Source of the DNA: an uncultured Verrucomicrobiota bacterium
GTDB lineage: Bacteria > Verrucomicrobiota > Kiritimatiellia > CAIQIC01 > Lenti-01
Length of the DNA stretch: 25,271 nucleotides
Direction: 5' to 3'
Assembly (NCBI GenBank): GCA_938003985.1
Contig: CALKWZ010000014.1
Location: forward strand, 1 to 25,271
Part shown: piece after piece, positions 734-25,271 of the stretch
Layout of the letters: every line of letters starts with the position of its first letter
Numbering within the stretch: position 1 is the stretch's first letter
Program-made: the position numbers and the translations under genes
Notes under the pieces: model-generated
Told to the model about the DNA's origin: nothing
Database searches by the model: none
Seen by the model: only the letters and a program-made list of their open reading frames with translations

Positions 734-1465
734 ATGGCGGAAACAACGAAAACGGCGCTGGTGATCGGGGGGAGCCGCGGCATTGGCCGGGCCATCGTGG
801 AACGCTTGGCCGCTTCGGGTTTCGACGTCTGGCTGACGTACCGGGGCAACCACGCCGCGGCGAACGAAGCGAAAGCCGTCGTGGAGGCCGCGGGCCGCAC
901 CTGCCGTCTGCTGGCGTTCGACGTGGCCGACCGCGCGGCGACGCGCGCGGCGCTGGAGCCGCTGTTGCAGGAACGCTGCCCGGACGCGCTGGTCTACAAT
1001 TCGGGCATCGCGCGCGACAACCTGCTGGCGTTCATGCAGGACGCGGAATGGGACGACGTCCTGCGCACGAACCTGGACGGGTTCTTCAACGTGTCGAAGC
1101 CCGTCGTATTCGAGATGATCCGCAACAAACGCGGGCGCATCGTGGTGATTTCGTCCATTTCGGGCCAGATGGGACAGGCCGGGCAGATGAACTACGCGGC
1201 GTCCAAGGCGGGCCTGATCGGCGCGGCGCGGTCGCTGGCGCGGGAAATCGGCCGCAAGAACGTCTTCGTGAACGTGGTCTCTCCGGGGGTCATCGAAACG
1301 GAAATGACGGCGGATCTGCCGAAGGAACACGTGCTGCCGCTGATCCCCCTGAACCGCTACGGCACGGCGGCGGAAGTCGCGGCCGTGGTGGATTTCCTCT
1401 GTTCCGAGCCGCACATGTACGTTCACGGCCAGGTCATCGGGGTGAACGGCGGCATGGCCATATGA
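734..1465 (+). CDS. 3-oxoacyl-ACP reductase, SDR family (FabG / ApeQ-like)
   Basis: GGSRGIGRAIVERL Rossmann motif, NSGIARDN, ISSISGQMGQAGQMNYAASKAGL (S-Y-K), C-terminal VIGVNGGMAI. The ORF extends upstream to 674, but ATG 734 fits the SDR start. Confidence 0.93.
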   Translation: MAETTKTALVIGGSRGIGRAIVERLAASGFDVWLTYRGNHAAANEAKAVVEAAGRTCRLLAFDVADRAATRAALEPLLQERCPDALVYNSGIARDNLLAFMQDAEWDDVLRTNLDGFFNVSKPVVFEMIRNKRGRIVVISSISGQMGQAGQMNYAASKAGLIGAARSLAREIGRKNVFVNVVSPGVIETEMTADLPKEHVLPLIPLNRYGTAAEVAAVVDFLCSEPHMYVHGQVIGVNGGMAI

Positions 1466-2967
1466 GTTCTCCCCGCCGAGAGCGCTACGACGACGTCGTG
1501 GTCGGCGCCGGCACGGCGGGCTTGGCTTCCGCCTTGCTCTTGGCGCGGTTCGGCCGGTCGGTGCTGCTGCTCGACCGCGCGCCCGCGCCCGGCGGCGCCT
1601 TGCGGCGGTTCCGGCGCGGCGGGGCCGCGTTCGACACGGGCTTCCACTTCACCGGCAGCATCCAGCCGGGGGAACTGTTCGACCATTTGCTGACCGTGCT
1701 CGGCATCCGCAGCGAACTGGACCTCGTGCCGTTCGATTCGGAGGCCGGCCATCGGTTCCGGTTCGCGGAGGCGGACGTGGAAATGGAACTGCCCTTCGGC
1801 CTCGACCGCTGCCGCGACCGCTGGCAGGCGCAGTTCCCGCAGGAACGGGAGGCGCTGAACTGGTATTTCGATGCGCTGCGGTCGATCGCGCAACGCACAA
1901 TGGGCATGGAAGTCGGTCGGCCGCTGACCGCGTTCGGGATGCTCGACGAGGATTTCGTTTCCCTGCGGTCGGTGCTGGATGCGCGCTTCCGCGACCCGGT
2001 GCTGAAAGGGGCGATCGGCGCGTTCGCGATGTGCTACGGATCGCCGCCGGCCAGCGTGTCGTTCGCGGCCCACGCGCGGGTGGCGTTCGGCTTCCACCAG
2101 TCGGGCGGCACGCTCGCGGGCGGCGGGGACGCGCTGGCGGATGCGCTGGCGCGCGCGGCCGAACGGGCCGGGGTGGAAATCTGCTGTTCGTGCGGATTGG
2201 AATCCTTTGCGCCGGGCGCGGACCGGCAGGCCGGCGCCGCGACGTTGTCGAACGGCGCGGAGGTCGCCTTCGAGCGCTGCCTGCTGACCATCGATCCCTT
2301 TGCGATCCTGGATCTGCTGGAGCCGCTGGGCCTCACGCCGGCGTTCCGCGAACGGGTGCAGGCGTTCACGCCTTCGGTCGGATTTTTCGCCGCCTACGGC
2401 ATCGTGGACGGCCCGGAGCCGGCCGGATTCGGCCGCTCGGCCCACTCGGAATTCGCCGGCACGGATTTCGATGCGATGATGGATCCGGCGTATCCGGGCG
2501 ACCGGCCGCTGGTCCTGATCGAAGTGCCCGGCGATCCGGCCACGGGCACGCCGCCGTCCGTCTCGGCGCTGGAACTGTCGTTCGCGCAGGACGTGGCGGC
2601 CTGGGCGGGCACGCGCCGCGGCCGCCGGCCGCCCGAGTACCGGGCCTACAAGCAGACCCGCGCGGCGGCGATCGCGCGGCGGCTGGCCGGCCGCGCGTCC
2701 TATGCGGACCGGATCCGCTGGGTGGACACGGCCTCGATGCTGACGTTCCGGGATTATCAGCATTCCCGCAGCGGCAGCGCCTATGGCATCATGCTGAAAA
2801 CCGGCCAGTACGGCCTGTTCGGCCGCCTGCCGGTCCGGAATTGCTATGCGGCGGGCCAAAGCGCTTTGTTGCCGGGCGTGCTGGGCGCGATGATGTCCGG
2901 GCTGTTCGTGGTACGGCAGATGGTCGGCAAGGAAATCTTCGACGCAGCGACGGCAGGAGCGCGGTAG
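1462..2967 (+). CDS. Phytoene desaturase/retinol saturase-like FAD-dependent oxidoreductase (CrtI-like)
   Basis: N-terminal DDVVVGAGTAGLASALLLARFGRSVLLLDRAPAPGG dinucleotide-binding motif, FDTGFHFTG, long CrtI-type body, C-terminal GQSALLPGVLGAMMSGLFVVRQMVG. ATGA overlap with the upstream gene. Confidence 0.82.
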   Translation: MSSPRRERYDDVVVGAGTAGLASALLLARFGRSVLLLDRAPAPGGALRRFRRGGAAFDTGFHFTGSIQPGELFDHLLTVLGIRSELDLVPFDSEAGHRFRFAEADVEMELPFGLDRCRDRWQAQFPQEREALNWYFDALRSIAQRTMGMEVGRPLTAFGMLDEDFVSLRSVLDARFRDPVLKGAIGAFAMCYGSPPASVSFAAHARVAFGFHQSGGTLAGGGDALADALARAAERAGVEICCSCGLESFAPGADRQAGAATLSNGAEVAFERCLLTIDPFAILDLLEPLGLTPAFRERVQAFTPSVGFFAAYGIVDGPEPAGFGRSAHSEFAGTDFDAMMDPAYPGDRPLVLIEVPGDPATGTPPSVSALELSFAQDVAAWAGTRRGRRPPEYRAYKQTRAAAIARRLAGRASYADRIRWVDTASMLTFRDYQHSRSGSAYGIMLKTGQYGLFGRLPVRNCYAAGQSALLPGVLGAMMSGLFVVRQMVGKEIFDAATAGAR

Positions 2968-2972
2968 GGCAC

Positions 2973-4211
2973 ATGAAACGGGTGGTCATCACGGGCATGG
3001 GGGCGGTTTCGCCGGTGGGCGGCACGGCGGCGGAACAAGCCGACGCGCTGGACGCCGGGCGGCACGGATTGCGCGCGATGCCGGAGTGGGCGGCCTACAA
3101 GGGGCTGCGCAGCTTGGTGGCGGCGCCGGCGGAGCTGAAGAACGAAAAGGCCATTCCCCGGCAAAACCGCCGCTCGATGAGCCGCATGAGCATCTTCGCC
3201 GCGCAAGCCGCCCAGGAAGCGCTGCGCGACGCCGGCTTGGCGCCCGAGGGGCTGGGCGACGGCCGTACCGGTTGCGTGGCGGGTTCGACGACGGGCAGCG
3301 CCATCGCGCTGGCCCAGGTCTACGAGACGATGTTGCCGGAAAAGGATTTCTCGATCCTGCAATCCATGCAGTTTTTCCAATGCCTGTCGCACACCGTAGC
3401 GATGAACCTCGCGCAATTTCTGGGATTGCGCGGCGTGCTGCTCGCCACGAACGCGGCCTGCGCTTCGAGCCTGCAGGCCATCGGCGCGGCGTTCGATCTG
3501 GTGCGGTCGGGCCGGCAGGACGCCGTGTTCTGCGGCGGGGCCGAAGAAGTCCATGCCACGGTCACGGGCTCGTTCGACATGCTCATGGCAGCGTCCACGC
3601 GCTACAACGACCGGCCCGAAGCGGCGTCGCGCCCCTTCGACGCCGCGCGCGACGGCCTCGTCTGCGGCGAGGGCGCCGGCATCCTCGTGGTGGAGGAACT
3701 GGAGCGGGCCTTGGCCCGCGGCGCGCGGATCCGCGCGGAAATCCTCGGATTCCACACGTGCAGCGGGGGCTCCCACATCAGCGAATCGAACCGCGACGGC
3801 ATCGCCGCCTGCATGCGCGCGGCGCTGGCGGACGCGCGGTTGGAGCCCGCCGCGATCGAATACGTCGGCGCCCACGCCACGGCAACCCTGCAGGGCGACG
3901 GCGAAGAGGCCGCCGCCATCCGCGCGACTTTCGGTGGCCAGGTGCCCGTCAGCAGCCTGAAGGGGAATCTGGGCCACACGCTGGGCGCATCCGGCGCCAT
4001 CGAACTGGCCGCGATCCTCGCCGGGCTCGAACGCGGCCACCTGTATCCCACGCGGAACCTGGAAACGGTGGCGGCCGAATGCGCCGGCATCCGCCACGTG
4101 ACGGCATTGGAGCCGACTTCCGCCCGCACGTTCCTGAAAAACAGTTTTGCGTTCGGCGGCATCCACGCGTCGCTCGTGTGCCGCCGCTGGACCGAGGGAG
4201 ACCCCGCATGA
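2973..4211 (+). CDS. Beta-ketoacyl-ACP synthase (FabF-like), complete Cys-His-His triad
   Basis: VVITGMGAVSPVG start; TNAACASSLQA (Cys), VGAHATATLQGD (His), SSLKGNLGHTLGASG (His); FLKNSFAFGGIHASLV. Confidence 0.92.
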   Translation: MKRVVITGMGAVSPVGGTAAEQADALDAGRHGLRAMPEWAAYKGLRSLVAAPAELKNEKAIPRQNRRSMSRMSIFAAQAAQEALRDAGLAPEGLGDGRTGCVAGSTTGSAIALAQVYETMLPEKDFSILQSMQFFQCLSHTVAMNLAQFLGLRGVLLATNAACASSLQAIGAAFDLVRSGRQDAVFCGGAEEVHATVTGSFDMLMAASTRYNDRPEAASRPFDAARDGLVCGEGAGILVVEELERALARGARIRAEILGFHTCSGGSHISESNRDGIAACMRAALADARLEPAAIEYVGAHATATLQGDGEEAAAIRATFGGQVPVSSLKGNLGHTLGASGAIELAAILAGLERGHLYPTRNLETVAAECAGIRHVTALEPTSARTFLKNSFAFGGIHASLVCRRWTEGDPA

Positions 4212-4465
4212 CCCGAGAAGAAATCATCGCCAAAACCAACGCCGTGTTCGCCGAATCCTTCGAGATCGAGCCCGAGCGCCTGAAACCCGAAGCCAACGTC
4301 TTCCTCGATCTGGGGCTCGACAGCCTCGACACGGTGGATCTGGTGGTGGCGATCCAGAAGAAGTTCGGCGTGCAGATCCGCGACGACGAGCGCGTCCGGT
4401 CCATCCGCACGCTGGGCGACGTCTACGACTTCATCGCGACCATCCAGCAAGAAAAGCAGGGATGA
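4208..4465 (+). CDS. Acyl carrier protein 1
   Basis: 85 aa with phosphopantetheine site DLGLDSLDTVDLVVAIQKKFG; ATGA overlaps at both ends. Confidence 0.92.
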   Translation: MTREEIIAKTNAVFAESFEIEPERLKPEANVFLDLGLDSLDTVDLVVAIQKKFGVQIRDDERVRSIRTLGDVYDFIATIQQEKQG

Positions 4466-5211
4466 GGCGGGCTTGGGGCATCTGCTATTCGCTGGCGTTC
4501 TACCCTCTGCTGGCGGTCTACACCGTGTCGGCGGTGGCGGGGATGACGTTGTGGATGCTCCTCGGCGCGCCGTTCCATTCGCACCGGGGCAACATGCGCC
4601 GCTTTCGCCGCGCGATCATCTGGTACGGCGCAGGGGTCGTCCGGATCGTGGCGCGGCCCGTGCTGAAAACCGTCTACGAATCGCCGCCGCGGGACGTGCG
4701 GATCCCCAAGTTTTTCGTCGCCAACCACGTTTCCTCGCTGGATGCCTTCCTGCTGGCCCTGGTGCCCGAGGAGGGCGTGGAGGTCGTGAAGGCCTGGCCG
4801 TTCCGGTTGCCGATTCTCGGCGTTTTCGCGCGTCTGGCGGGTTTCTTGAACGTCGAGCGGATGGAGCCGGACGAATTCCGGGCGGCCGTGGAGGACCTGC
4901 TGGGCGAGGGCTATTCGATCGTGGTGTTTCCCGAAGGCACCCGCTCCGGCAGCCGGCAAGTGGGACCGTTCCACGGGGCGATGTTCCGCCTGGCGCTCGA
5001 GCTGCGCGTGCCCCTGGTGCCGGTGTGCATCGTCGGCAACGAGCGGACGCCGGCCAAGGGCTCCTGGATCCTGGAACCGGCGACCGTGCGGATGCGCTGC
5101 TTGCCGGAAATGGCGTGGAACGAGTTTAGCCACATGACGCCCTATCAGTTGAAAAACCACGTGCGCCGGCTGATCCAGGACGAAGTGGACCGCATGGGAG
5201 CGACCGCATGA
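4462..5211 (+). CDS. 1-acyl-sn-glycerol-3-phosphate acyltransferase-like protein (PlsC family)
   Basis: ANHVSSLDAF (HX4D) and VVFPEGTRSGS motifs; hydrophobic N-terminus. Confidence 0.88.
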   Translation: MRRAWGICYSLAFYPLLAVYTVSAVAGMTLWMLLGAPFHSHRGNMRRFRRAIIWYGAGVVRIVARPVLKTVYESPPRDVRIPKFFVANHVSSLDAFLLALVPEEGVEVVKAWPFRLPILGVFARLAGFLNVERMEPDEFRAAVEDLLGEGYSIVVFPEGTRSGSRQVGPFHGAMFRLALELRVPLVPVCIVGNERTPAKGSWILEPATVRMRCLPEMAWNEFSHMTPYQLKNHVRRLIQDEVDRMGATA

Positions 5212-6518
5212 AGCCGTTGCCGCAAGACTTCGATCTGGCTTTCCGTTCCGCCGACGAAATCCAAGCCGTGCAGGAGCGGCGGTTGGCCGCGCATCTGCGG
5301 CAGTGCCGTCGCGCGCCGTTCTATCGAAAGACGCTGGCCGGCGTGGCAAAGCCTGCGCTGCGCCGCTTCCCGCTGGAAGCGCTGCGCGACTTGCCGCTGA
5401 CGACCAAAGCCGATCTGGAAGCGCGCAACGACGATTTCCTCGCCGTGCCGCCGGAGACGGTGCGCGACATCGTGCAGTCGTCCGGCACGACGGGCCGTCC
5501 TACGCGGGTGATGTACACGGCGCGGGATCTCGAGCGGCTGGCCTACAACGAGGCGGTCTGTTTCCGGGGCTGCGGCATGGGGCCGGGGGATCGCGTGCTG
5601 CTGACCTGCACGCTGGACCGCTGTTTCGTGGCCGGCTACGCCTACCACCTCGGCGCGCAGGCGGTCGGCGCATGCACGATCCGCAGCGGGCTCAATCTGG
5701 CGGAAGGCCACGCCGCGGTCATCGCGCTGCAAAGCCCGACGTTCGTCGTGGGCGTTCCGGGGTTCCTGCGCAAGCTCGGCAAGCACCTGCACGACCTGGG
5801 CCGGCCGCCGCAGGGCATCCGCGGACTGATCTGCATCGGCGAACCCCTGCGCGACGCGGAATTGCGTCCGACGGCGCTTTCGCAGGATCTGGAGCGCCTG
5901 TGGGGCGCACCGGCGTACTCGACCTATTCCTCGTCCGAAATCGTGACGTCGTTCTGCGAATGCGCCGCGCGGTGCGGCGGCCACGCCGCGCCCGATCTGG
6001 GCATCGTGGAAATCGTGGATGCGGACGGGAACGTCCTGCCGCCGGGGCAGGCGGGCGAGGTGGTCGTGACGCCGCTGGGCGTCGAGGGCATGCCGCTCGT
6101 CCGGTTCCGCACGGGCGACATCGGTTACTTGGCGGCCGAACCGTGCGCGTGCGGCCGGCAGACGCCGCGGCTGAGCCCGATCCTGGGCCGCCGCGCGCAG
6201 ATGCTGAAGATCCGCGGCACCACGTTCTACCCGGCCACCGCGTTCGAGGTGCTCAACGACGTGCCCGAAATCGGCGAATACTATCTCCAGGTCGAAACGA
6301 CGGGCGGGGAGGACCAGGCCAGCGTCCATCTGAGCCTCAGTCCCGACCGGCCCGAGACGCGCCGCAAGATCGAAGACCGGTTGCTGGCGCGCCTGCGCGT
6401 GCGGGTCCAGCTCTGCGTGGAGCCGGAAGACGACGTGCGCCGGCAGGTCTACGTGGCCCATTCGCGCAAACCCATCCGGTTCATCGACCGGCGCGGAACA
6501 ACGGCAGCCAAGGCTTGA
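5208..6518 (+). CDS. AMP-dependent acyl/aryl ligase of the phenylacetate-CoA ligase (PaaK) type
   Basis: VQSSGTTGRPTRVMYT P-loop, YSTYSSSE, RFRTGDIGYLAAEPCACGRQTPRLSPILGR, KIRGTTFYPATAFEVL C-terminal subdomain. Confidence 0.85.
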   Translation: MKPLPQDFDLAFRSADEIQAVQERRLAAHLRQCRRAPFYRKTLAGVAKPALRRFPLEALRDLPLTTKADLEARNDDFLAVPPETVRDIVQSSGTTGRPTRVMYTARDLERLAYNEAVCFRGCGMGPGDRVLLTCTLDRCFVAGYAYHLGAQAVGACTIRSGLNLAEGHAAVIALQSPTFVVGVPGFLRKLGKHLHDLGRPPQGIRGLICIGEPLRDAELRPTALSQDLERLWGAPAYSTYSSSEIVTSFCECAARCGGHAAPDLGIVEIVDADGNVLPPGQAGEVVVTPLGVEGMPLVRFRTGDIGYLAAEPCACGRQTPRLSPILGRRAQMLKIRGTTFYPATAFEVLNDVPEIGEYYLQVETTGGEDQASVHLSLSPDRPETRRKIEDRLLARLRVRVQLCVEPEDDVRRQVYVAHSRKPIRFIDRRGTTAAKA

Positions 6519-6520
6519 TC

Positions 6521-6877
6521 ATGGAAATCCTTGCCATCCATACCAATGAAGCCCGCGTGCGCTTTCCGGCGAACGCACCGTACTTCGCGGGGCATTTCCC
6601 CGGCCAACCCATCGTGCCGGGGGTCGTGCTGATCGACGCGGCGGTCCAGATCGCGGCGCAGGCGACCGCCCGCCCGTTGCGCCTCCTCCGGCTGGCCCAT
6701 GCCAAGTTCGTCCAGGCGGTCGGACCGGATCAGGAAGCCCTTTGGCGTTTCCAGATTGCGCCGGACCCGGACCGTTCGGAATGGCTCAAGGTTTCCGGCA
6801 AGTGGAGCCAAGGCGAGACCCGGATCGCCGAAATGCAATTCACCGCGGCAGACGAAGGAGATCGCGATGGCCCGTAG
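6521..6877 (+). CDS. Hotdog-fold 3-hydroxyacyl-ACP dehydratase-like protein (FabZ/ApeI-like)
   Basis: 118 aa; YFAGHFPGQPIVPGVVLIDAAVQIAAQ motif. Confidence 0.82.
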   Translation: MEILAIHTNEARVRFPANAPYFAGHFPGQPIVPGVVLIDAAVQIAAQATARPLRLLRLAHAKFVQAVGPDQEALWRFQIAPDPDRSEWLKVSGKWSQGETRIAEMQFTAADEGDRDGP

Positions 6878-7355
6878 GCGCGAACAAGCCATGTCGTTCC
6901 CGGACGAACCGGCCTATCCGCCGATCCAGGCGGCGGTGCAGCACCGGGTCGGGTTTTCGGAAGTCGATCCGATGCGGATCGTCTGGTTCGGACGCTACGC
7001 GACGTTTTTCGAGCAGGCCTCGGCGGCGCTGCGCGACCGGTGCGGACTGTCGCACGAAGATTTCTTCCGCGCGGGCATCCAGCCGCCCATCGTGCGCTAC
7101 GAGGTCGAATATCTGCGGCCGTCGCGCCTGGACGAGCAGTTGAAGATCGTGGCGCGCCTGCACGGGACCGAAGCGGCGCGGCTGAACACCAGCTATCAGG
7201 TCTTCGGTCCGGACGGGGCGCTGCGCGTGGCGGCGCGCACGGTGCAGGTGTTCACGGAAATCCACACGGGCATCGTCTGTTTCGTGCCGCCGAAAATCTG
7301 GCTCGATTGCCTGGAGCGCTGGCGGAAAGGGGAATTCGCGTGCCTGCAGGCGTAG
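6867..7355 (+). CDS. 4-hydroxybenzoyl-CoA-type acyl thioesterase (4HBT / YbgC-like)
   Basis: HRVGFSEVDPMRIVWFGRYATFFEQASAALRDRCG followed by EVEYLRPSRLDEQL. Start may be 6867 or 6891. Confidence 0.8.
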   Translation: MARRREQAMSFPDEPAYPPIQAAVQHRVGFSEVDPMRIVWFGRYATFFEQASAALRDRCGLSHEDFFRAGIQPPIVRYEVEYLRPSRLDEQLKIVARLHGTEAARLNTSYQVFGPDGALRVAARTVQVFTEIHTGIVCFVPPKIWLDCLERWRKGEFACLQA

Positions 7356-12933: not shown

Positions 12934-12936
12934 CGC

Positions 12937-15143: not shown

Positions 15144-15144
15144 T

Positions 15145-15399
15145 ATGGCGACGACCCCTGACGAAACGTTGTTGAAGCTGAAGGAACACGTGGCTTTCCT
15201 GCTGGGCGTGGAAGCCTCCGGCATCGCCGCCGACCAACCCCTGCACCTGCTCGGAATCGATTCGATGGGGTTCGTCGATCTGCTGGTGTTCATCGAAAAG
15301 CAATTCGGCCTGTCGCTGATGAACTCCGGCCTGTCCCAGGACGATTTCGCCTCGCTGGCGGTTCTGGCGGGCCGGATCGCCGGGGCCCGGCCATCATGA
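15145..15399 (+). CDS. Acyl carrier protein 3
   Basis: LHLLGIDSMGFVDLLVFIEKQFG phosphopantetheine site. ATG 15145 has SD-like GAGG 5 nt upstream; alternative ATG 15127. Confidence 0.85.
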   Translation: MATTPDETLLKLKEHVAFLLGVEASGIAADQPLHLLGIDSMGFVDLLVFIEKQFGLSLMNSGLSQDDFASLAVLAGRIAGARPS

Positions 15400-17922: not shown

Positions 17923-17951
17923 TCTCTTAACAATACAACCGGAGAAGACCG

Positions 17952-20115: not shown

Positions 20116-20744
20116 GCCGTCGGCCACGTCGGATGGCGGGACTGATCTGCGGCCTGCTCGCCGTTCAGGTCTCCCTCGCCGCGGAACCCGCAACCGACGT
20201 CTTGGGTCAGATGGAACAGGCCATGGCGGACGTCAAAACCGTCAAAACCCGTTTCGTGCAGGAAAAGAAGATGGCCCTGTTCAACCATCCGCTGGTCACG
20301 CGCGGCAGCATCTGGGTCGAACCGCCGGAGCACTTGCTCTGGCGGGTGGAAAGCCCGATGCAGTACGCCCTGGCGCTCGACGGCTCCCGCGTCCGGCAAT
20401 GGGACGGCGAGACCGGCAAAACGACCAGCCTGTCCATGGACGGCAATCCCGTCTTCGCCGCCGTCACCGAGCAGCTCAATGCCTGGTTCGGCGGGCGCTA
20501 TGGCCTGCTGGCCCAGGATTACGACGTCGAGCAGCAGGTCGCCGCGCCCGCCACGTTCGTCTTCGTTCCCAAGCCGACCGCGCCGTCCGCGAAAATGCTG
20601 AAATCGGTGACGGTCGTTTTCCGCGCGGACGCGCGCTACATCGCGTCCATCCGGATCGACGACCGCAGCGGCGACGTCACCACGCTGACGTTCACCGAGA
20701 CCGAGATCAACGTCCCCTTGGATCCGAAAGCCTGGGAGCTGTAG
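20112..20744 (+). CDS. LolA-like outer-membrane lipoprotein carrier family protein
   Basis: Signal peptide GLICGLLAVQVSLAAEP; VKTRFVQEKKMALFNHPLVTRGSIWVEPPEHLLWRVESP; ATGA overlap. Confidence 0.82.
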   Translation: MSRRPRRMAGLICGLLAVQVSLAAEPATDVLGQMEQAMADVKTVKTRFVQEKKMALFNHPLVTRGSIWVEPPEHLLWRVESPMQYALALDGSRVRQWDGETGKTTSLSMDGNPVFAAVTEQLNAWFGGRYGLLAQDYDVEQQVAAPATFVFVPKPTAPSAKMLKSVTVVFRADARYIASIRIDDRSGDVTTLTFTETEINVPLDPKAWEL

Positions 20745-23161
20745 TGGCCGGGCCGTTTCGGGACAAGCTGCGGGCGGGTCTGCGGCGGCGGTCGGCCGTC
20801 TTGGGCTTGGTCGCGCTGGTCTTGCTGCTGTCCGCTGCCGCGTTGCCGTTCAGGAGCTTCAACGGGCGCATCGACGTCATGCTGCCGGACCGTTCCGAAC
20901 TGCGGGACGTTTTCGGTTTTCTGCGCGACATCCACGTCGCCGACAAAGTGCTGGTGACGCTTTCCATGCGCGCCGGGACGGTCGATCCCGACGCGTTGGC
21001 CGCGGCGGCCGATGCCTACGTCGCCGGTCTCGATCCGGCCTGGGCCGCGCCTCTGGCGGCGGGGAGCCCGGTTGCCGACGTGGCGGGGGACTTCGACCGC
21101 TTGGCGCGGCGGTTGCCGGACTATCTCGCCGCGGAAGATCTGGCCCGATTGCGCGACGGCGCGGCGTCGGCCGCCGGCATCCGGGCCTCGCTGCAGGCCC
21201 TGAAAAGCCGCCTGCAACGCCCGGAAGGGATGTGGTCCGCCGTTGCCCCCGGAGCCGATCCGCTGGACTGGAACGGCCGGCTGGCGGCGGGCATCCTCCA
21301 TGCGGTGTCCTCCTTCGGCTACCGCGCGGTGCCGGTGGGCAACCATCTGATGGACCCGGAGCGGCGCCATCTGCTGCTGGTGCTGCAAACACCCGTCCTG
21401 ATGACGGATACGGCCCGGGGCCGCGGCCTGCTGGAGCATCTCGCCGCGCGCGCCGCGGAACTGCCGCCGACGGTCGAAGCGCGGCTCGTGTGCGGGCATC
21501 TGCATACCGCCGGCAACGAAACCCTCATCCGGTGGGACGTCCAACGCACCGCGCTGGCGATTTCCGCCGTTTTCCTGGCGCTCTTTTGGGGCGTTTACCG
21601 CGATCCGCGCGCGCTGGCGATCATGCTGATCCCGATGCTGGCCTGCGTGCCCGCGCTGGCGTTGGCGGCGGCGTTTTTCGAGAGTTTTTCCTTCATCGTG
21701 CTCGGGTTCGGTTCGGTGATCGCGGGTATTGCCGTGGATTACGGCATCCATAGCTACGTCGCGGCGCGCAGCGCGCAGCCCGACCGCAATCTGGCGGCCA
21801 TTCGCCGCCCGGTTGCGCTGAGCGCGCTGACCACGCTCTGCGTGTTCATCGCGTTCTGTTTTTCCAGCATTCCGGCCTATCGGCAACTCGGGGCGTTCGC
21901 TTCGTTCGCCATCGTGATTTCGCTGGTGTACGCCTTCTGGGCCTTGCCCCCGTTCGTGCGTCGGCGCGCAACTGCGGTGCCGGAGCCGGTGCCGGCGGCG
22001 AGGGGCAACGGCTCGCGAACGCAGGCCGCCTGGATCGCGCTGGTCGCGGCGGCGGCGTTGGCGGCGGGGATTGGCTTGCTGGCCCGGCTGTCGCTGGATC
22101 CGGACGTTTCCAAACTGGACGGCACGCCGCAAGCGGTTCTCGACGAGGAGGCCCGGGCCATGGCGATCTGGGGCGGGGGGCAATCCATGGCCGCCATCCT
22201 CGTCGTGGAGGCTCCGGACGAGCAGGAAGCCCTACATCTGAACGACCGGCTGTACGAGGATTTGCAGGCCGCCGGGTTGCCGGCTTCCGAAATGTCCAGT
22301 CTGGCACCGCTGTGGCCCTCCGCCGCGACCCGCCAGGCGCGCCGCGCGGCTTGGAACGAAGCGTGGACGGACGAACGCATCGCCGAATTGCGCCGGACGC
22401 TGGCGACGGAAGCCGCCGCGCTCGATTTCTCGGAAGCCGCCTTCGCCGCCTTCTGGGAGCGGTTCGCGGAGTGGCGGGACCTGGCCGCCGAACAGGAGTC
22501 CGTCGGTTTCCTGGAGCCGCTGCGCCGGCAATTCATCCACGCGCAGGACGGCAAGGTGCGCGTGACGACGTTCGTCCCCGACGAGCCGCGCTGGATCGCG
22601 GCGGCCCAGGAGTTGCAACAAGAGCTGGCGGCGCTGCGCGTGATTTCCAGACGGGCGTTTTCGGCGGACTTGTCCGCGGCGGTGCTCGGCGAAATGCTGC
22701 GGACGACGATCTGGGCGGGAACGTTCATCCTGCTTGCGACGGGGCTGGTGCTGCGGCGCGCCGGCATGCTGGCGCTGGCCATCCTCCCGGCCGTGGCCGG
22801 CATGGTCTGGGGCGGGGCGGGCATGGCGTTGTGGGGACTGTCGCTGAACGTGTCCAATCTGGTCGCGGGCATCCTGGTCTTCGGTTTGTGCATCGACTAC
22901 GGCATCTGCATGGCCTATGCCCAGCGGCGCGGGATGCGGCGCGACATGTCCCGCGCGGTGACGCTGTCGGCGCTGACGACGGCGCTGGGCGCGGCGGTGC
23001 TGTTGATCGCCGACCATCCGGCCTTCCTGGCGATCGGCATCACGCTGGTGTTCGGCGTGAGCGCGGGTTACGTCTACGCCCGGTGGGTGTTGCCGGCGCT
23101 GCAAATCCTGTTCCCGCGCCTCAATCCGCCCGATGAATGCGCGGCGGAGGAGGGCGCATGA
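20744..23161 (+). CDS. MMPL/RND-superfamily exporter
   Basis: GTG start overlapping the TAG stop; about 805 aa with two sets of clustered TM segments (e.g. ALAIMLIPMLACVPALALAAAFFESFSFIVLGFGSVIAGIAVDYGIHSY and VSNLVAGILVFGLCIDYGICMAYA). Confidence 0.9.
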   Translation: MAGPFRDKLRAGLRRRSAVLGLVALVLLLSAAALPFRSFNGRIDVMLPDRSELRDVFGFLRDIHVADKVLVTLSMRAGTVDPDALAAAADAYVAGLDPAWAAPLAAGSPVADVAGDFDRLARRLPDYLAAEDLARLRDGAASAAGIRASLQALKSRLQRPEGMWSAVAPGADPLDWNGRLAAGILHAVSSFGYRAVPVGNHLMDPERRHLLLVLQTPVLMTDTARGRGLLEHLAARAAELPPTVEARLVCGHLHTAGNETLIRWDVQRTALAISAVFLALFWGVYRDPRALAIMLIPMLACVPALALAAAFFESFSFIVLGFGSVIAGIAVDYGIHSYVAARSAQPDRNLAAIRRPVALSALTTLCVFIAFCFSSIPAYRQLGAFASFAIVISLVYAFWALPPFVRRRATAVPEPVPAARGNGSRTQAAWIALVAAAALAAGIGLLARLSLDPDVSKLDGTPQAVLDEEARAMAIWGGGQSMAAILVVEAPDEQEALHLNDRLYEDLQAAGLPASEMSSLAPLWPSAATRQARRAAWNEAWTDERIAELRRTLATEAAALDFSEAAFAAFWERFAEWRDLAAEQESVGFLEPLRRQFIHAQDGKVRVTTFVPDEPRWIAAAQELQQELAALRVISRRAFSADLSAAVLGEMLRTTIWAGTFILLATGLVLRRAGMLALAILPAVAGMVWGGAGMALWGLSLNVSNLVAGILVFGLCIDYGICMAYAQRRGMRRDMSRAVTLSALTTALGAAVLLIADHPAFLAIGITLVFGVSAGYVYARWVLPALQILFPRLNPPDECAAEEGA

Positions 23162-23835
23162 AACGGTTGCGGACCGGAGTCATGGTTATGGCCGGGCTGT
23201 GGCTGACGGGGTGCGCGACGGCGCCGTTCCAGCGGCCGGAACCGTTTGCGGCGACCGGACTCGCGCCGGAACGGGTTCCGGCGGCTTTCGCGGAACGCTT
23301 GGCGCCGCGCTACGAACAAGCGCAAGCTCTCGTGTTTCGCTTCTATCTGCGCGAAATCGCCGCGCTGGGCTATCTCTCCGTGGACGTGCCCGCCCGCTCG
23401 TTCGCGATGGCCTGCCTGAATCCGGTCGGCATCAAGTTGTTCGAGCTGGTCGGAACGAACGGCGAAGTCGAGGCCCGGTTCGTCGCGCCGGAAATCGAAA
23501 AGCACGGCGGCGAACTGGCGCAAGCGGCGGGGGCGGACTTGGCGCGGGCCTACTTCGATTGGCTGCCGCCGGCCGGCGCGACGTGCCGCCGCGCTAAAAA
23601 CCGGCTGATTTTCACCGCCGCGGATGCCGCGGGGCGCACGGAATACCGCTATGCCGGCCGCGACGGGTTTTTGGCCGAAAAAATCCGCATCGAAGCCGGC
23701 CGCGTTCGCTGGAAGGTGGACTATCGCGATTATCGCCGCGGCGCGGAGGGCTGGATCCCGACCGGACTGGTGATCCACAACCGGCGTTATGGCTATCGCC
23801 TGGTCGCCATCGCGAAAGAGTCGGAGGCTCCATGA
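23158..23835 (+). CDS. Predicted lipoprotein (DUF3261-like, as found in APE loci)
   Basis: Lipobox MAGLWLTGCATAP; ATGA overlaps at both ends; RNRLIF-type beta-rich body ending in GLVIHNRRYGYRLVAIAKE. Confidence 0.65.
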   Translation: MKRLRTGVMVMAGLWLTGCATAPFQRPEPFAATGLAPERVPAAFAERLAPRYEQAQALVFRFYLREIAALGYLSVDVPARSFAMACLNPVGIKLFELVGTNGEVEARFVAPEIEKHGGELAQAAGADLARAYFDWLPPAGATCRRAKNRLIFTAADAAGRTEYRYAGRDGFLAEKIRIEAGRVRWKVDYRDYRRGAEGWIPTGLVIHNRRYGYRLVAIAKESEAP

Positions 23836-25271
23836 AAGTCCTGTTGGTGCGCCCCCATCTGATCCTGGCGCTGTCGCGCCGCTTCAATGCTTTCCTGCAT
23901 CTGGAGCCGTTGGATTTGGAGATCGTCGCCGGCGGCGTGGAAGCGCCGCACGAGGTGGAAATCCTGGACCTGTCGCACGGCCGGCGGCCGTTCGCCGCGC
24001 TGCGGCGGAAACTGCGCGACATGCGGCCGGATCTGGTGGGCTTCGGCTGCTACTCGAACCAAGCGGCGGCGGTGCGCGAGCTGGCTGGCCTCGTCCGGCA
24101 AGTCCTGCCGACCGCGAAGATCGCGGTGGGCGGGGTCCACGCCAGCATCGCGCCGCAGGACCTGAACCGGCCCGAATTGTACGATTTCGTGGTGCGCGGG
24201 GAGGGCTCCGTGGCCATCCGCCGCCTGCTGGCGGCGCTGGAGCGGGGCGCGGCCATCGCCGACGAAGGCGTGCTGCCCGTCGGCGCGCCCGAATTCGCCG
24301 CCTTGGCGGAAGGACCGCCGCCGGCCCATCCCGACTACCGCGAAGTGGCCAAGCCCCGCCGGGACTTGGTCGATCGCTCGAAGTATTTCTGCATCTGGTC
24401 CGGCAAGCCGGATGAAAGCCTGGCCACGCTCTATCCGCGCACGGCGTCCATGCGCACCAGCGTGGGCTGTCCGCGGCGGTGCAGCTTCTGCGTCGTGCAT
24501 TTCCTGGCCCATGGGCGCTATATCCAGCGGGATCCCGCCGACGTCGTGGACGAAATCGCGTCGATCCCGGAGGATTACGTCTATTTCGTGGACGACGAAA
24601 TGTTCATCAATCCCGTGCGCGCCGAAGCGATCGCGCGCCTGCTGCTCGAACGGGGCGTGCGCAAGCAGTACGTCAGCTGGGCGCGCAGCGACACCATCTG
24701 CGCGCATCCGGAGCTGTTCAAGCTGTGGCAGCGGGCCGGCCTGCAAGTCGTCTACGTCGGGTTGGAATCGATGGAAGCGGATGCCCTGAAAAACTTCAAC
24801 AAGGGCGTCGATCCGGACACCAACCGCCGGGCCGTGGCGATCCTGCGCGAGGCCGGCATCGTGCTGCATTCGGCGCTGATCGTGAATCCCGATTTCACCC
24901 AAGCGGATTTCCAGCGGCTGCACCGGACGGTCGCGGCCATCGCGCCGGCGGAAATGTCCTTCACGGTGCTGGCGCCGTCGCCGGGCACGGACTTCTGGCG
25001 GGAAACCCGCGCGCGGTTCATCGCGCCCGATCCGTACGCCTTCTACGACTGCATGCACACGCTGTTGCCGACGCGCCTGCCCATGCGCACGTTCTACCGC
25101 TATTTTTCGCTGCTGTACCTGCGCGGATTCCAGCACAATCCCTGGCGCGCGCACCGCGTGAAGGTGCCGTTCCGGGATCTGCTGCGGCTGATGTGGAGCG
25201 GAGCGCGCACCGGCTGGACCCTGCACGGGCTCCACCGCGATTATCCGCCCGAAGCCCGCGCGGCGTGCGGG
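23832..25271 (+). CDS. B12-binding-domain-type radical SAM protein, truncated by the window edge
   Basis: Open frame of 480 codons to the edge, missing from the supplied ORF track. MKVLLVRPHLILALSRR...LVGFGCYSNQAAAVRELAGLVRQVLPTAKIAVGGVHASIAPQD; RTSVGCPRRCSFC (CX3CX2C); VVYVGLESMEADALKNFNKG. Confidence 0.88.
   Translation, partial: MKVLLVRPHLILALSRRFNAFLHLEPLDLEIVAGGVEAPHEVEILDLSHGRRPFAALRRKLRDMRPDLVGFGCYSNQAAAVRELAGLVRQVLPTAKIAVGGVHASIAPQDLNRPELYDFVVRGEGSVAIRRLLAALERGAAIADEGVLPVGAPEFAALAEGPPPAHPDYREVAKPRRDLVDRSKYFCIWSGKPDESLATLYPRTASMRTSVGCPRRCSFCVVHFLAHGRYIQRDPADVVDEIASIPEDYVYFVDDEMFINPVRAEAIARLLLERGVRKQYVSWARSDTICAHPELFKLWQRAGLQVVYVGLESMEADALKNFNKGVDPDTNRRAVAILREAGIVLHSALIVNPDFTQADFQRLHRTVAAIAPAEMSFTVLAPSPGTDFWRETRARFIAPDPYAFYDCMHTLLPTRLPMRTFYRYFSLLYLRGFQHNPWRAHRVKVPFRDLLRLMWSGARTGWTLHGLHRDYPPEARAACG

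What the first reader, a model, noticed from the sequence alone, without database searches (positions are those of the whole stretch)
734..25271. Hybrid type II fatty-acid/aryl-polyene-like locus with four radical SAM enzymes and a CrtI-like oxidoreductase
Seen: about 20 consecutive same-strand genes covering reductase, four ketosynthase-family proteins, three ACPs, dehydratases, thioesterase, acyltransferases, LolA-like, MMPL exporter and lipoprotein. Established: this set resembles bacterial aryl polyene (ape/flexirubin-type) loci, but those do not normally carry several B12-type radical SAM proteins or a phytoene-desaturase-like enzyme. Radical SAM plus phytoene-desaturase-like plus FabF/FabZ/ACP genes were proposed as ladderane candidates in anammox bacteria. 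Inference: the locus may make an envelope-linked polyunsaturated or ring-containing lipid/polyene of a new type. No ammonia lyase, methyltransferase or glycosyltransferase is visible, so the starter unit is unclear.
Basis: partly seen in the sequence, partly recalled or inferred. Interest (0 to 1): 0.85.

Follow-up and report, generated by a model that had tools for sequence, protein, structure and literature searches.

The report
Radical-SAM-decorated aryl-polyene-type lipid operon
This is a real 24-gene operon that couples an aryl-polyene-style lipid assembly and outer-membrane export line to four radical SAM enzymes, but it belongs to a widespread "ladderane-like" cluster family first noticed in 2009, whose product is still unknown.

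Summary
Bases 734-25271 hold 24 tightly packed same-strand genes. They include a complete aryl-polyene (APE)-type set: KR, three active KS, a CLF, three ACPs, ApeI/ApeP dehydratases, a thioesterase, an aryl-type AMP ligase, two lipid acyltransferases and LolA/RND/DUF3261 export. They also include three B12-type radical SAM enzymes, one SPASM radical SAM enzyme, a CrtI/CrtD-fold flavoprotein and a second flavoprotein.

The "new type" reading is only partly supported. One radical SAM enzyme passes NCBIfam TIGR04072 ("lipid biosynthesis B12-binding/radical SAM"). The same gene set, with the radical SAM genes interleaved, recurs in at least 521 GTDB species loci from PVC bacteria, Nitrospirota, Omnitrophota, Desulfobacterota and a Brocadiia MAG. 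This is the family Rattray et al. (2009) found shared by Kuenenia, Desulfotalea and Geobacter, and that genome mining labels "ladderane" in non-anammox bacteria.

- The SPASM radical SAM enzyme is fused to an ApeP dehydratase.
- An unannotated 450-aa protein has a condensation-domain fold.
- KS2 carries a fused mini-CLF.
- This PVC lineage has deleted the family's glycosyltransferase.
- A conserved second AMP ligase lies just past the window end.

The most likely product is a radical-tailored polyene lipid of the outer membrane. Ladderane production is unlikely.

The parts
734..1465 (+). g01: FabG/ApeQ-type 3-ketoacyl-ACP reductase (243 aa)
   Evidence: PF13561 E 3e-50. NCBIfam FabG 283.5 bits, above its cutoff of 273. 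FlxB 273 bits, below its cutoff of 340. It is the first gene of the cluster in Nitrospiraceae and Omnitrophota relatives too.
1462..2967 (+). g02: CrtI/CrtD-fold FAD protein (501 aa), either a desaturase or a saturase of a polyene chain
   Evidence: PF01593 E 2e-14. CrtD/CrtI NCBIfam hits fall far below their cutoffs. The AF2 model has pLDDT 92; the top PDB match is 4rep gamma-carotenoid desaturase, E 1e-22. Orthologs of 36-43% identity sit at the same position in L091 and L092.
2973..4211 (+). g03: KS1, a FabB-like/ApeR-position ketosynthase with intact Cys-His-His
   Evidence: PF00109/PF02801. PRK09116 387 bits. PDB 4ewg E 4e-94. Active-site motifs read.
4208..4465 (+). g04: ACP1
   Evidence: PF00550 E 2e-12. 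NF003757 75 bits, above its cutoff of 65.
4462..5211 (+). g05: PlsC/ApeD-type lysophospholipid acyltransferase
   Evidence: PF01553 E 3e-21. The role of ApeD is described in the APEL paper.
5208..6518 (+). g06: AMP ligase 1, PaaK/FlxY/ApeH-like; the presumed starter-acid loader
   Evidence: FlxY 385 bits (cutoff 520) and PaaK 152 bits. It corresponds to the 'phenylacetyl-CoA ligase' of the Rattray synteny.
6521..6877 (+). g07: ApeI/FabZ-like hotdog dehydratase
   Evidence: PF07977 E 8e-10 and PF22818 E 1e-4. The HFPGQPIVPG motif is present.
6867..7355 (+). g08: 4HBT thioesterase in the ApeK position (162 aa)
   Evidence: PF13279 E 9e-12. The start follows the gene calls on L088.
7340..9028 (+). 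g09: KS2 (active triad) fused to a C-terminal truncated KS-like 'mini-CLF'
   Evidence: PF00109/PF02801. The C-terminal 182 aa hit PF00109 at E 1e-6. The two parts are fused in PVC loci and split into a KS plus a roughly 234-aa ORF elsewhere. AmcF is the second-best NCBIfam hit at 157 bits.
9025..10296 (+). g10: divergent B12-domain/radical SAM/DUF4070 protein; the most conserved protein of the cluster
   Evidence: CKFKCFPC motif. Pfam hits are weak. Identity is 59-69% in loci outside the window's own order-level clade, against about 45-54% for g11. It lies directly upstream of g11 in 67 of 70 loci. The orthogroup collapses to two full-length 50%-identity representatives, after which identity drops to 40% or less.
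10293..11651 (+). g11: TIGR04072 'lipid biosynthesis B12-binding/radical SAM protein'
   Evidence: 577.8 bits against a cutoff of 360. The next-best hits are BzaD (189 bits) and the Trp 2-C-methyltransferase family (145 bits). CPHRCAYC motif.
11648..12583 (+). g12: LpxL-type acyltransferase, equal to the C-terminal half of an ApeJ-like GT2-DUF2062-acyltransferase
   Evidence: PF03279 E 1e-13. Residues 16-309 align to residues 390-683 of the 691-aa fusion protein in L017. The GT2/DUF2062 domains are seen in relatives.
12655..12933 (+). g13: ACP2
   Evidence: PF00550 E 9e-12. NF006617 70.5 bits.
12937..14121 (+). g14: KS3, the ApeO-position elongating ketosynthase
   Evidence: PF00109/PF02801. 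PDB hits: 9s5h_B 200 bits, 6kxd_A (depositor name 'Ketosynthase') 190 bits, 6qsp_A 160 bits.
14118..15143 (+). g15: chain-length-factor-like partner with the catalytic Cys replaced by Ala
   Evidence: PF00109 E 6e-14 and PF13723 E 1e-8. The substitution was read from the sequences.
15145..15399 (+). g16: ACP3
   Evidence: PF00550 E 5e-9.
15396..16748 (+). g17: free-standing condensation-domain/PapA5-like protein, previously annotated only as 'hypothetical'
   Evidence: No Pfam or NCBIfam hit. The AF2 model has pLDDT 89 and pTM 0.91. Foldseek matches 8s6l at E 4e-21 and NRPS C domains at E 1e-17 to 1e-19. The family profile hits an NRPS at E 3e-6. A D144-H145-x3-D149 motif is invariant.
16745..17914 (+). 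g18: PF12831 FAD-dependent oxidoreductase
   Evidence: PF12831 E 2e-52. It is co-conserved with g17 across phyla.
17952..18494 (+). g19: small secreted protein of unknown function, specific to this clade
   Evidence: No family hit. It has an N-terminal signal-like segment. It is found in only 5 of 80 genome loci.
18631..20115 (+). g20: radical SAM/SPASM enzyme fused to an ApeP-type dehydratase domain
   Evidence: PF04055 E 2e-19 and PF13186 E 1e-7. A profile of the C-terminal 150 aa hits 6qsr_B at E 4e-19. The fusion is present in Brocadiia, Nitrospiraceae and Omnitrophota loci.
20100..20744 (+). g21: LolA/ApeL-like periplasmic carrier
   Evidence: PF03548 E 3e-14. LolA2_flexi 77.8 bits against a cutoff of 125.
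20744..23161 (+). g22: RND (HAE3/HpnN/ApeM-like) transporter, 805 aa
   Evidence: HpnN 79 bits and HAE3 57 bits, both below cutoff. The MMPL hit is weak.
23158..23835 (+). g23: DUF3261/ApeN-like lipoprotein
   Evidence: PF11659 E 2e-3. LTGC lipobox. The exact protein is found on eight public contigs.
23832..25271 (+). g24: B12-binding radical SAM enzyme, HpnR/BchE-like; cut by the window end (full length 484 aa)
   Evidence: PF04055 E 2e-17 and PF02310 E 3e-16. HpnR 234 bits against a cutoff of 650. Full-length gene on L001.

Best explanation
The window holds one co-transcribed biosynthetic operon. It is a member of a conserved, phylum-spanning cluster family that grafts radical chemistry onto the aryl-polyene-lipid (APEL) pathway.

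Shown:
- Gene content, translational coupling, and conservation of the interleaved set across phyla.
- Four intact radical SAM motifs.
- An rSAM/SPASM-ApeP fusion.
- A KS plus mini-CLF fusion.
- A condensation-fold protein.
- Deletion of the glycosyltransferase half of the ApeJ-like enzyme.

Inferred mechanism:
1. AMP ligase 1 (ApeH/FlxY/PaaK-like) activates a carboxylic, probably aromatic, starter and loads an ACP.
2. KS1 and the KS3/CLF pair, with the FabG-type KR and the ApeI/ApeP dehydratases, build a conjugated polyene acyl-ACP. There is no enoyl reductase.
3. The KS2/mini-CLF pair and the adjacent B12-rSAM pair (g10/g11), the dehydratase-tethered SPASM rSAM (g20), the HpnR-like rSAM (g24) and the two flavoproteins modify the ACP-bound chain or head group without oxygen. 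C-methylation is the most likely change. Desaturation, saturation or C-C ring closure are also possible.
4. A second, FadD-like ligase just outside the window, together with ACP3 and the condensation-like enzyme, supplies and couples a second acyl unit.
5. The PlsC-type and LpxL-type acyltransferases fix the chains on a glycerolipid anchor.
6. The LolA-like, RND and DUF3261 proteins carry the product to the outer membrane.

In this PVC lineage the sugar bridge found in APELs is probably absent.
For: - Operon structure.
- APE-type parts: 6qsp_A; 6qsr_B, E 4e-19. FlxB, FlxY and LolA2_flexi are the closest named relatives.
- No enoyl reductase among the 24 proteins.
- Family membership: TIGR04072 at 577.8 bits against a cutoff of 360.
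- Conservation of g06-g24 in Nitrospirota, Omnitrophota, Desulfobacterota, Hydrogenedentota and Brocadiia loci, and of the FabG-CrtI-KS1-ACP-PlsC block at the 5' end in L091 and L092.
- g10 lies directly upstream of g11 in 67 of 70 loci.
- The rSAM-ApeP fusion is conserved.
- g17 has a condensation fold with an invariant DHxxxD motif.
- The second ligase is conserved inside 13 distant clusters.
- The nearest named relatives of g11 (BzaD, Trp 2-C-methyltransferase family) and g24 (HpnR) are C-methyltransferases.
- The APEL structure and the roles of ApeD, ApeJ, ApeL, ApeM and ApeN come from bioRxiv 10.1101/2020.12.19.423268.
Against: - No product is known for any member of the family. Every chemical step is inferred from homology.
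- All APE/flexirubin equivalog models score below their curated cutoffs, so the starter need not be aromatic and the chain need not be an aryl polyene.
- Similarity of the radical SAM enzymes to methylases is remote (189-234 bits against cutoffs of 450-650). B12-rSAM enzymes also catalyse cyclisations (BchE) and ring contractions (HpnJ), both of which appear among the weaker hits.
- The Kuenenia homologues of the CrtI-like protein did not desaturate phytoene, and heterologous expression of the Kuenenia genes gave no new lipid (PMC4790861).
- The host is an uncultured PVC bacterium, so no lipid data exist.
Confidence: 0.6

Rival explanations
1. The locus is a true ladderane cluster, and the host makes cyclobutane-ladder lipids as anammox bacteria do.
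For: - The gene classes are the same as in the Kuenenia candidate clusters: B12-rSAM, phytoene-dehydrogenase-like protein, KS/CLF-like FabF pair, dedicated ACPs and a PCL.
- TIGR04072 carries the short name rSAM_ladder_B12.
- A Brocadiia MAG has a syntenic cluster.
- The best PDB hit of KS3 is 9s5h_B, an unnamed 2026-era KS heterodimer chain, at 200 bits.
Against: - The closest genomes are Verrucomicrobiota and Kiritimatiellia MAGs, not anammox genera.
- The family occurs in at least 521 species, whereas the papers read describe ladderanes only in anammox bacteria.
- Desulfotalea carries the syntenic cluster but has no ladderanes.
- The cluster now considered specific to ladderane producers is the small Cluster I, kuste3603-3608. 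The family seen here appears to correspond instead to the larger kuste3335-3352 cluster, judging from the published gene list.
- The LolA/RND/DUF3261 export genes point to the outer membrane, not to an internal organelle.
Confidence: 0.03
2. The cluster is an anaerobic polyunsaturated fatty acid pathway (Rattray's hypothesis). Its product would feed membrane PUFA or head-to-head C31 polyene hydrocarbons rather than a pigment-like outer-membrane lipid.
For: - There is no enoyl reductase.
- A CrtI-like protein and radical SAM enzymes could desaturate a chain without O2.
- D. psychrophila carries the family, makes C31:8/C31:9 hydrocarbons and lacks a Pfa-type PKS.
Against: - The KS/CLF pair, KR and ApeI/ApeP dehydratases generate conjugated polyenes directly. 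No desaturase is needed, and the product is not the methylene-interrupted pattern of PUFA.
- The aryl-type ligase, two lipid acyltransferases, the condensation-like enzyme and the dedicated LolA/RND/lipoprotein export set fit the APEL logic.
- A reviewer of the 2009 paper called this chain of inference weak at each step.
Confidence: 0.1
3. Two unrelated pathways lie side by side: an ordinary APE cluster and neighbouring radical SAM genes that serve something else.
For: Characterised APE clusters have no radical SAM genes (core gene list). The radical SAM enzymes have no assigned substrate.
Against: - The radical SAM genes sit between pathway genes, with 4-nt start/stop overlaps.
- The interleaved order is conserved in dozens of loci from many phyla, although the SPASM/LolA/RND/DUF3261 block has moved in the PVC lineage.
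- One radical SAM enzyme is covalently fused to the ApeP dehydratase.
Confidence: 0.02
4. It is a conventional aryl polyene or flexirubin pigment. The B12-rSAM enzymes merely replace the missing SAM methyltransferase ApeB by methylating the aryl head, so the product is a known chemotype.
For: - There is no ApeB-type methyltransferase.
- The closest named relatives of g11 methylate aromatic carbons: BzaD and the Trp 2-C-methyltransferase family.
- APE head groups are mono- or dimethylated.
Against: - Ten genes beyond the APE core are conserved as a set, which is far more than head-group methylation needs: KS2/mini-CLF, three B12-rSAM, SPASM rSAM, CrtI-like protein, PF12831 flavoprotein, ACP3, the condensation-like enzyme and the second ligase.
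- The Kuenenia version additionally has genes annotated 'SAM methylase'.
Confidence: 0.15

Closest known systems
The 'ladderane-like' FAS II/radical SAM cluster family: Kuenenia kuste3335-3352, Desulfotalea psychrophila, Geobacter and Pelobacter loci (Rattray et al. 2009); NCBIfam TIGR04072; antiSMASH 'ladderane' hits in non-anammox bacteria
   Same: - A TIGR04072 B12-rSAM above the curated cutoff, with a second B12-type rSAM next to it.
- Phytoene-desaturase-like flavoprotein, PaaK-like ligase, several FabF paralogues including a catalytically dead one, extra ACPs, FabG, a FabZ-like dehydratase and an RND-type membrane protein.
- Synteny with loci from Nitrospirota, Omnitrophota, Desulfobacterota and a Brocadiia MAG.
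   Different: - This PVC lineage has lost the GT2-DUF2062 glycosyltransferase, and the polysaccharide deacetylase seen in at least one relative (L025) is absent.
- KS2 is fused to its mini-CLF.
- The SPASM-rSAM/LolA/RND/DUF3261 block has moved to the 3' end.
- The second AMP ligase has been flipped to the opposite strand.
- A small secreted protein has been added.
- Kuenenia sequences themselves could not be compared here.
Aryl polyene lipid (APEL) clusters apeB-R of Xenorhabdus doucetiae and E. coli CFT073; flexirubin flx clusters
   Same: An ApeH/FlxY-like ligase, ApeR-type KS, ApeO/ApeC-type KS/CLF, multiple ACPs, ApeQ/FlxB-like KR, ApeI and ApeP dehydratases, ApeK-type thioesterase, ApeD-type and ApeJ-C-type acyltransferases and ApeL/ApeM/ApeN-type export proteins. 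There is no enoyl reductase.
   Different: - All flexirubin equivalog models score below cutoff.
- There is no ApeB methyltransferase, no GT half of ApeJ, and no ammonia lyase or DarAB.
- Ten conserved extra genes are present: four rSAM, CrtI-like protein, PF12831 flavoprotein, KS2/mini-CLF, ACP3, the condensation-like protein and the second ligase.
- ApeP is fused to a radical SAM enzyme.
Anammox 'Cluster I' (kuste3603-3608: amxACP, amxFabZ, amxFabF2/amxFabFmut, PDH, B12-rSAM)
   Same: A KS/CLF-like heterodimer logic, a dedicated ACP, a FabZ-type dehydratase, a phytoene-dehydrogenase-like enzyme and a cobalamin radical SAM enzyme acting in a FAS II-like context.
   Different: Cluster I is a six-gene cluster described as unique to ladderane producers. 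It has no ligase, acyltransferases or LolA/RND export genes. The present locus comes from a non-anammox PVC bacterium and belongs to the larger family that non-anammox bacteria share.
Hopanoid side-chain and ring tailoring enzymes: HpnR, HpnJ and HpnN (with HpnI and HpnK recalled from memory)
   Same: Radical SAM enzymes with B12 domains act on a membrane lipid, alongside an RND exporter. g24 hits HpnR at 234 bits, g10 hits HpnJ at 46 bits and g22 hits HpnN at 79 bits. Relatives also carry a GT2 and a deacetylase.
   Different: All scores are far below the family cutoffs, and the substrate here is ACP-bound polyketide/fatty acyl, not a triterpenoid. The analogy is one of logic only.

Membership tests
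TIGR04072-type 'ladderane-like' lipid cluster family (Rattray 2009) | B12-binding radical SAM protein passing the TIGR04072 equivalog cutoff | tested here: met
   577.8 bits against a cutoff of 360, covering 2-441 of 452 aa.
TIGR04072-type 'ladderane-like' lipid cluster family (Rattray 2009) | Second radical SAM gene adjacent, plus further radical SAM genes in the same FAS II-like cluster | tested here: met
   g10 lies directly upstream of g11 in the window and in 67 of 70 loci. g20 and g24 are conserved across phyla.
TIGR04072-type 'ladderane-like' lipid cluster family (Rattray 2009) | Phytoene-dehydrogenase-like amine-oxidase-family flavoprotein in the cluster | tested here: met
   PF01593 hit. 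CrtD-like fold. Orthologs at the same position in L091 and L092.
TIGR04072-type 'ladderane-like' lipid cluster family (Rattray 2009) | Phenylacetyl-CoA-ligase-like enzyme, divergent FabF paralogues including one without the active-site Cys, extra ACPs, and a lipid-transport membrane protein | tested here: met
.
TIGR04072-type 'ladderane-like' lipid cluster family (Rattray 2009) | Glycosyltransferase (kuste3335 type) in the cluster | tested here: not met
   None of the 24 proteins has a GT domain. The GT2-DUF2062 module present in most of the 58 loci outside the window's clade is deleted here and in the 8 loci of that clade.
TIGR04072-type 'ladderane-like' lipid cluster family (Rattray 2009) | Direct orthology to Kuenenia kuste3335-3352 and D. 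psychrophila proteins | not tested
   Those sequences were not retrievable by name. Only a syntenic Brocadiia-class MAG (L087) was compared.
Aryl polyene lipid (APE/APEL) BGC | Core set of KS (ApeO, ApeR), CLF (ApeC), two ACPs, DH (ApeI, ApeP), KR (ApeQ) and transporter (ApeM) | tested here: met
   All classes are present. KS3 hits 6qsp_A at 160 bits. The ApeP-domain profile hits 6qsr_B at E 4e-19.
Aryl polyene lipid (APE/APEL) BGC | Equivalog-level identity to characterised APE/flexirubin enzymes (FlxB, FlxY, LolA2) | tested here: not met
   FlxB 273 against 340, FlxY 385 against 520, and LolA2_flexi 78 against 125.
Aryl polyene lipid (APE/APEL) BGC | ApeB SAM methyltransferase and bifunctional ApeJ (GT plus acyltransferase) | tested here: not met
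   There is no methyltransferase. Only the acyltransferase half of ApeJ is present.
Aryl polyene lipid (APE/APEL) BGC | Aryl (4-hydroxyphenyl) starter and conjugated polyene product | not testable with these tools
   This needs pigment and lipid analysis or in vitro loading assays.
Anammox ladderane Cluster I | Occurrence restricted to ladderane-producing anammox bacteria | tested here: not met
   The closest genomes are Spartobacteria, Verrucomicrobia and Kiritimatiellia MAGs at 91-97% identity.
Anammox ladderane Cluster I | amxFabF2/amxFabFmut-type KS/CLF heterodimer | tested here: inconclusive
   A KS3/CLF pair is present. KS3's best PDB hit is 9s5h_B at 200 bits, only marginally above ordinary FabF at 194 bits, and the identity of 9s5h was not verified. 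The CLF has no specific hit.
Anammox ladderane Cluster I | Ladderane lipid product | not testable with these tools
   The host is uncultured. Desulfotalea, which carries the syntenic cluster, lacks ladderanes.

The most novel reading that the evidence does not exclude
The conserved extra module acts on ACP-bound enoyl or polyene intermediates to forge C-C bonds (rings or cross-links) rather than only methyl groups. This module comprises KS2/mini-CLF, the g10/g11 B12-rSAM pair, the dehydratase-tethered SPASM rSAM and the CrtI-like enzyme. Under this reading, hundreds of anaerobic species make an undescribed class of carbocyclic polyketide lipids of the outer membrane. The anammox ladderane machinery would be a specialised offshoot of this family. 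That would make ladderane-type chemistry testable in cultivable carriers such as Geobacter.
Probability: 0.12. Interest if true: 0.9.

Novelty: new member of a known kind. Interest (0 to 1): 0.45.

Why it matters
[quoted passage not shown] This cluster family puts four such enzymes inside an aryl-polyene-type lipid pathway in at least 521 species from many phyla. The chemistry is therefore probably common among anaerobes, yet it remains unknown.

Knowing the product would define a new envelope lipid of environmentally abundant Nitrospirota, Omnitrophota, Desulfobacterota and PVC bacteria. It could supply biomarkers. It might also show what the homologous enzymes do in anammox bacteria, where genetics is impossible.

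The window itself adds a natural variant without the glycosyltransferase, plus several sharper annotations. It does not add a new kind of system.

Tried and rejected
- Literature search for TIGR04072, rSAM_ladder_B12 or the NCBI product name found no paper.
- The sigma-70 promoter and terminator scan of 300-800 found nothing and is uninformative for this phylum.
- Rfam found only the two upstream tRNAs and no riboswitch, cobalamin or otherwise.
- PDB sequence searches with ACP2 and the ApeI-like dehydratase did not discriminate between anammox-type and APE-type relatives.
- The CLF has no informative solved relative.
- Upstream context could not be recovered. Every public contig carrying the identical FabG ends about 520-790 bp upstream of it, within or just beyond the tRNA region.
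- g10 (9025-10296) was considered as a possible non-radical-SAM B12 protein because its Pfam radical SAM hit is weak. This was rejected because CxxxCxxC is intact and conserved.
- 6699-7355 was considered as a 218-aa thioesterase. This was rejected in favour of the 6867 start used by the gene calls on L088.
- A horizontally acquired island was considered. GC content is uniform at 63-73% across the window, and relatives of the same lineage carry the cluster, so there is no support beyond the tRNA-fragment repeat.

Full report
**What is in the sequence.** The window is 63-73% GC throughout, so raw ORF lists are noisy. Third-position GC framing and start-codon inspection give 24 consecutive + strand genes from 734 to the window end. 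These agree with the gene calls on public metagenome contigs that encode identical proteins. Seventeen of the 23 junctions overlap, mostly by the 4-nt ATGA type, and only three gaps exceed 5 nt. The locus therefore reads as one operon. Upstream lie tRNA-Ala(CGC) and tRNA-Tyr(GTA).

**Gene inventory** (Pfam; NCBIfam):
- FabG-type KR.
- CrtI/CrtD-like flavoprotein.
- KS1.
- ACP1.
- PlsC-type acyltransferase.
- PaaK/FlxY-like AMP ligase.
- ApeI/FabZ-like dehydratase.
- 4HBT thioesterase.
- KS2, with a C-terminal truncated KS-like domain.
- A divergent B12/radical SAM/DUF4070 protein.
- A TIGR04072 B12-radical SAM protein.
- LpxL-type acyltransferase.
- ACP2.
- KS3.
- A CLF, with the catalytic Cys replaced by Ala.
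- ACP3.
- A 450-aa protein with no family hit.
- A PF12831 flavoprotein.
- A 180-aa secreted protein.
- A radical SAM/SPASM protein.
- LolA-like protein.
- RND transporter.
- DUF3261 lipoprotein.
- An HpnR/BchE-like B12-radical SAM protein.

All four radical SAM proteins keep CxxxCxxC, and the three full KS keep Cys-His-His. No enoyl reductase, ammonia lyase, SAM methyltransferase or glycosyltransferase is present.

**Where it comes from and where it ends.** Proteins identical to those in the window occur on ENA and Logan metagenome contigs. The closest genomes are MAGs labelled Spartobacteria, Verrucomicrobia UBA2281 and Kiritimatiellia, at 91-97% identity for the TIGR04072 protein. The host is thus a PVC-superphylum bacterium, not an anammox planctomycete.

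On contig L001 the last gene is 484 aa, so the window cuts only a few codons. The next gene is a convergent FadD-like AMP ligase. Orthologs of that ligase (43-54% identity) lie inside the cluster, on the cluster strand, in 13 distant loci. The cluster therefore extends one gene past the window.

**It is a member of a large, already noticed family.** The 10293-11651 protein scores 577.8 bits against NCBIfam equivalog TIGR04072, 'lipid biosynthesis B12-binding/radical SAM protein', whose cutoff is 360. More than 2,000 90%-identity clusters match it at E below 1e-20. These came from PVC groups, Nitrospirota/Thermodesulfovibrionia, Omnitrophota, Desulfobacterota/Geobacterales/Pelobacter, Hydrogenedentota and others.

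A tblastn matrix of the 24 window proteins against 87 fetched loci shows that g06-g24 recur together across these phyla. The divergent B12 protein lies directly upstream of the TIGR04072 gene in 67 of 70 loci with enough sequence. Looking up distant homologs of the CrtI-like protein shows that Nitrospiraceae and Omnitrophota clusters also start with FabG, CrtI-like, KS1, ACP and PlsC, preceded by unrelated genes. A MAG labelled Candidatus Brocadiia has the same set.

This matches the gene list of Kuenenia kuste3335-3352: glycosyltransferase, phytoene desaturase, FabZ, ACPs, FabG, two adjacent radical SAM enzymes, phenylacetyl-CoA ligase, three FabF including a non-canonical one, and a deacetylase-like protein. 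It also matches the synteny Rattray et al. reported with Desulfotalea, Geobacter and Pelobacter. Genome-mining papers already report 'ladderane' BGCs in Verrucomicrobiota, Omnitrophota and other non-anammox phyla, with no product known. Hence 'a new type' is not supported. 'An uncharacterised type' is.

**The radical SAM genes belong to the pathway.** Beyond the conserved interleaving and translational coupling, the SPASM enzyme carries a C-terminal hotdog domain. A 19-sequence profile of that domain hits PDB 6qsr_B at E 4e-19 over the full domain, well ahead of FabZ structures. From memory, 6qsr is the ApeI:ApeP complex; the depositor's name for chain B is a FabA/FabZ dehydratase. Precomputed Pfam lists PF22817 ApeP-like for the orthologs. 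A radical SAM enzyme is therefore covalently tied to the dehydratase that works on ACP-bound intermediates. This disposes of the 'unrelated neighbour' alternative.

- The 450-aa protein (15396-16748) and its roughly 126 detectable homologs are all 'hypothetical' with no Pfam domain. An AlphaFold model from a 28-sequence alignment (pLDDT 89, pTM 0.91) matches 8s6l at E 4e-21 and many NRPS condensation, cyclisation and X domains at E about 1e-17 to 1e-19. The family profile also hits an NRPS by sequence at E 3e-6. A D-H-x3-D motif is invariant. It is a free-standing condensation/PapA5-type enzyme, most simply an acyl-ACP-dependent ester- or amide-forming transferase.
- KS2's C-terminal 180 residues are a truncated, Cys-less KS-like domain. 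This domain is fused in PVC loci and a separate roughly 234-aa ORF elsewhere. KS2 therefore has its own small CLF-like partner. The cispentacin AmcF and AmcG models are among the NCBIfam hits for KS2, KS3 and the CLF.
- The CrtI-like protein has a carotenoid-desaturase fold: 4rep, E 1e-22, TM 0.77. Some sources name its homologs retinol saturase, so the direction of the reaction is open.
- The divergent B12 protein g10 is the most conserved protein of the cluster. Its orthogroup collapses to two full-length 50%-identity representatives before identity drops to 40% or less.

**How this copy differs from the family norm.** In most loci outside the window's own clade, a gene of about 1.2 kb lies between the TIGR04072 gene and the LpxL-type acyltransferase. 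It encodes GT2 plus DUF2062 and is sometimes fused to the acyltransferase, as in ApeJ. A polysaccharide deacetylase gene lies between ACP2 and KS3 in the one such locus scanned (L025). In the window and its eight closest relatives the gap is -3 to 18 nt. The window protein aligns only to residues 390-683 of the 691-aa fusion. The glycosyltransferase half has therefore been cleanly deleted in this lineage. The SPASM/LolA/RND/DUF3261 block has also moved from behind the first ligase to the 3' end, and the second ligase has been inverted.

**Most likely function.** The closest characterised system is the aryl polyene lipid pathway. In Xenorhabdus the ape cluster makes an aryl polyene esterified to GalNAc-phosphate-glycerol that also carries a C26:5 conjugated fatty acid. 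ApeD (PlsC-type) and ApeJ (GT plus acyltransferase) do the lipid assembly, and ApeL, ApeM and ApeN do the export.

The window has counterparts of all the core parts listed, but they score below the flexirubin equivalog cutoffs. I therefore infer the following:
1. Ligase-primed, ACP-bound polyene assembly without enoyl reduction.
2. Anaerobic radical tailoring by the four radical SAM enzymes and two flavoproteins.
3. Supply of a second acyl unit through the FadD-like ligase, ACP3 and the condensation-like enzyme.
4. Attachment to a glycerolipid.
5. Export to the outer membrane.

The nearest named relatives of g11 (BzaD and the Trp 2-C-methyltransferase family) and of g24 (HpnR) are C-methyltransferases, so methylation is the default guess. 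BchE- and HpnJ-type chemistry also appears among the hits, and neither it nor ring formation can be excluded. None of this chemistry is shown.

**Why it is probably not a ladderane cluster.**
- In the papers read, ladderanes are described only from anammox bacteria.
- Desulfotalea has the syntenic cluster but no ladderanes.
- Current work treats the small kuste3603-3608 cluster as the one unique to ladderane producers.
- Heterologous expression of the Kuenenia genes gave no new lipids, and their CrtI-like proteins did not desaturate phytoene.
- As of 2026 the ladderane pathway is still unknown.

**Verdict.** This is a real, well-delimited operon. It is a GT-less, rearranged PVC member of a widespread and previously noted cluster family that has never been characterised chemically. 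Interest is moderate. The family is an attractive target, because reviews still list only ladderanes and jawsamycin as radical-SAM-modified ketoacyl lipids. This window, however, does not reveal a new kind of system or make the open question more testable than the Geobacter and Desulfotalea loci known since 2009.

Noticed in passing
window 155-341 and 476-590: tRNA-Ala(CGC) and tRNA-Tyr(GTA) lie upstream of the operon. About 200 nt downstream, the 3' half of tRNA-Tyr is repeated (279-321 matches 476-518 at 84%, and the acceptor end recurs at 569-590). The repeat is split by a roughly 50-nt GC-rich palindromic insert. It looks like a pseudo-tRNA or an old integration-site scar. All public contigs carrying the identical FabG end about 520-790 bp upstream of it, within or just beyond this region.
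   Followed up: partly
L001 12368-13789 (- strand), about 240 nt beyond the window end: A convergent FadD-like AMP ligase (473 aa) has orthologs inside the cluster in 13 distant loci (43-54% identity), usually right after the PF12831 flavoprotein. It is part of the conserved gene set but lies outside the window.
   Followed up: yes
L001 13797-15219; L074, L081, L083; L050, L078, L079: The DUF4410 and MipA outer-membrane protein genes just downstream of the cluster also have homologs within the fetched ±10 kb around the cluster in a few distant loci (three each). They may be loose accessory members.
   Followed up: partly
window 9025-10296: The least well-annotated radical SAM protein (weak Pfam hits, DUF4070 tail) is the most conserved protein of the cluster: 59-69% identity in loci outside the window's own order-level clade, against about 45-54% for its TIGR04072 neighbour. 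At 50% clustering, only two full-length representatives exist before identity falls to 40% or less.
   Followed up: partly
window 17952-18494: A 180-aa protein with a signal-like N-terminus and no family hit is inserted between the flavoprotein and the SPASM enzyme. It is found in only 5 of 80 genome loci.
   Followed up: no
L087 14847-15743 (- strand); L013 13285-15350: The Brocadiia-class cluster is interrupted by an opposite-strand gene carrying a weak (sub-threshold) PF07963 N_methyl match, a prepilin-type N-terminal motif. One Lentisphaerales locus has an unexplored 2-kb insertion between the acyltransferase and ACP2.
   Followed up: no
window 5-64: A run of imperfect 12/24-nt CGGCGG-type direct repeats sits at the very start of the window, in a stretch whose frame bias suggests the end of a - strand gene.
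   Followed up: no
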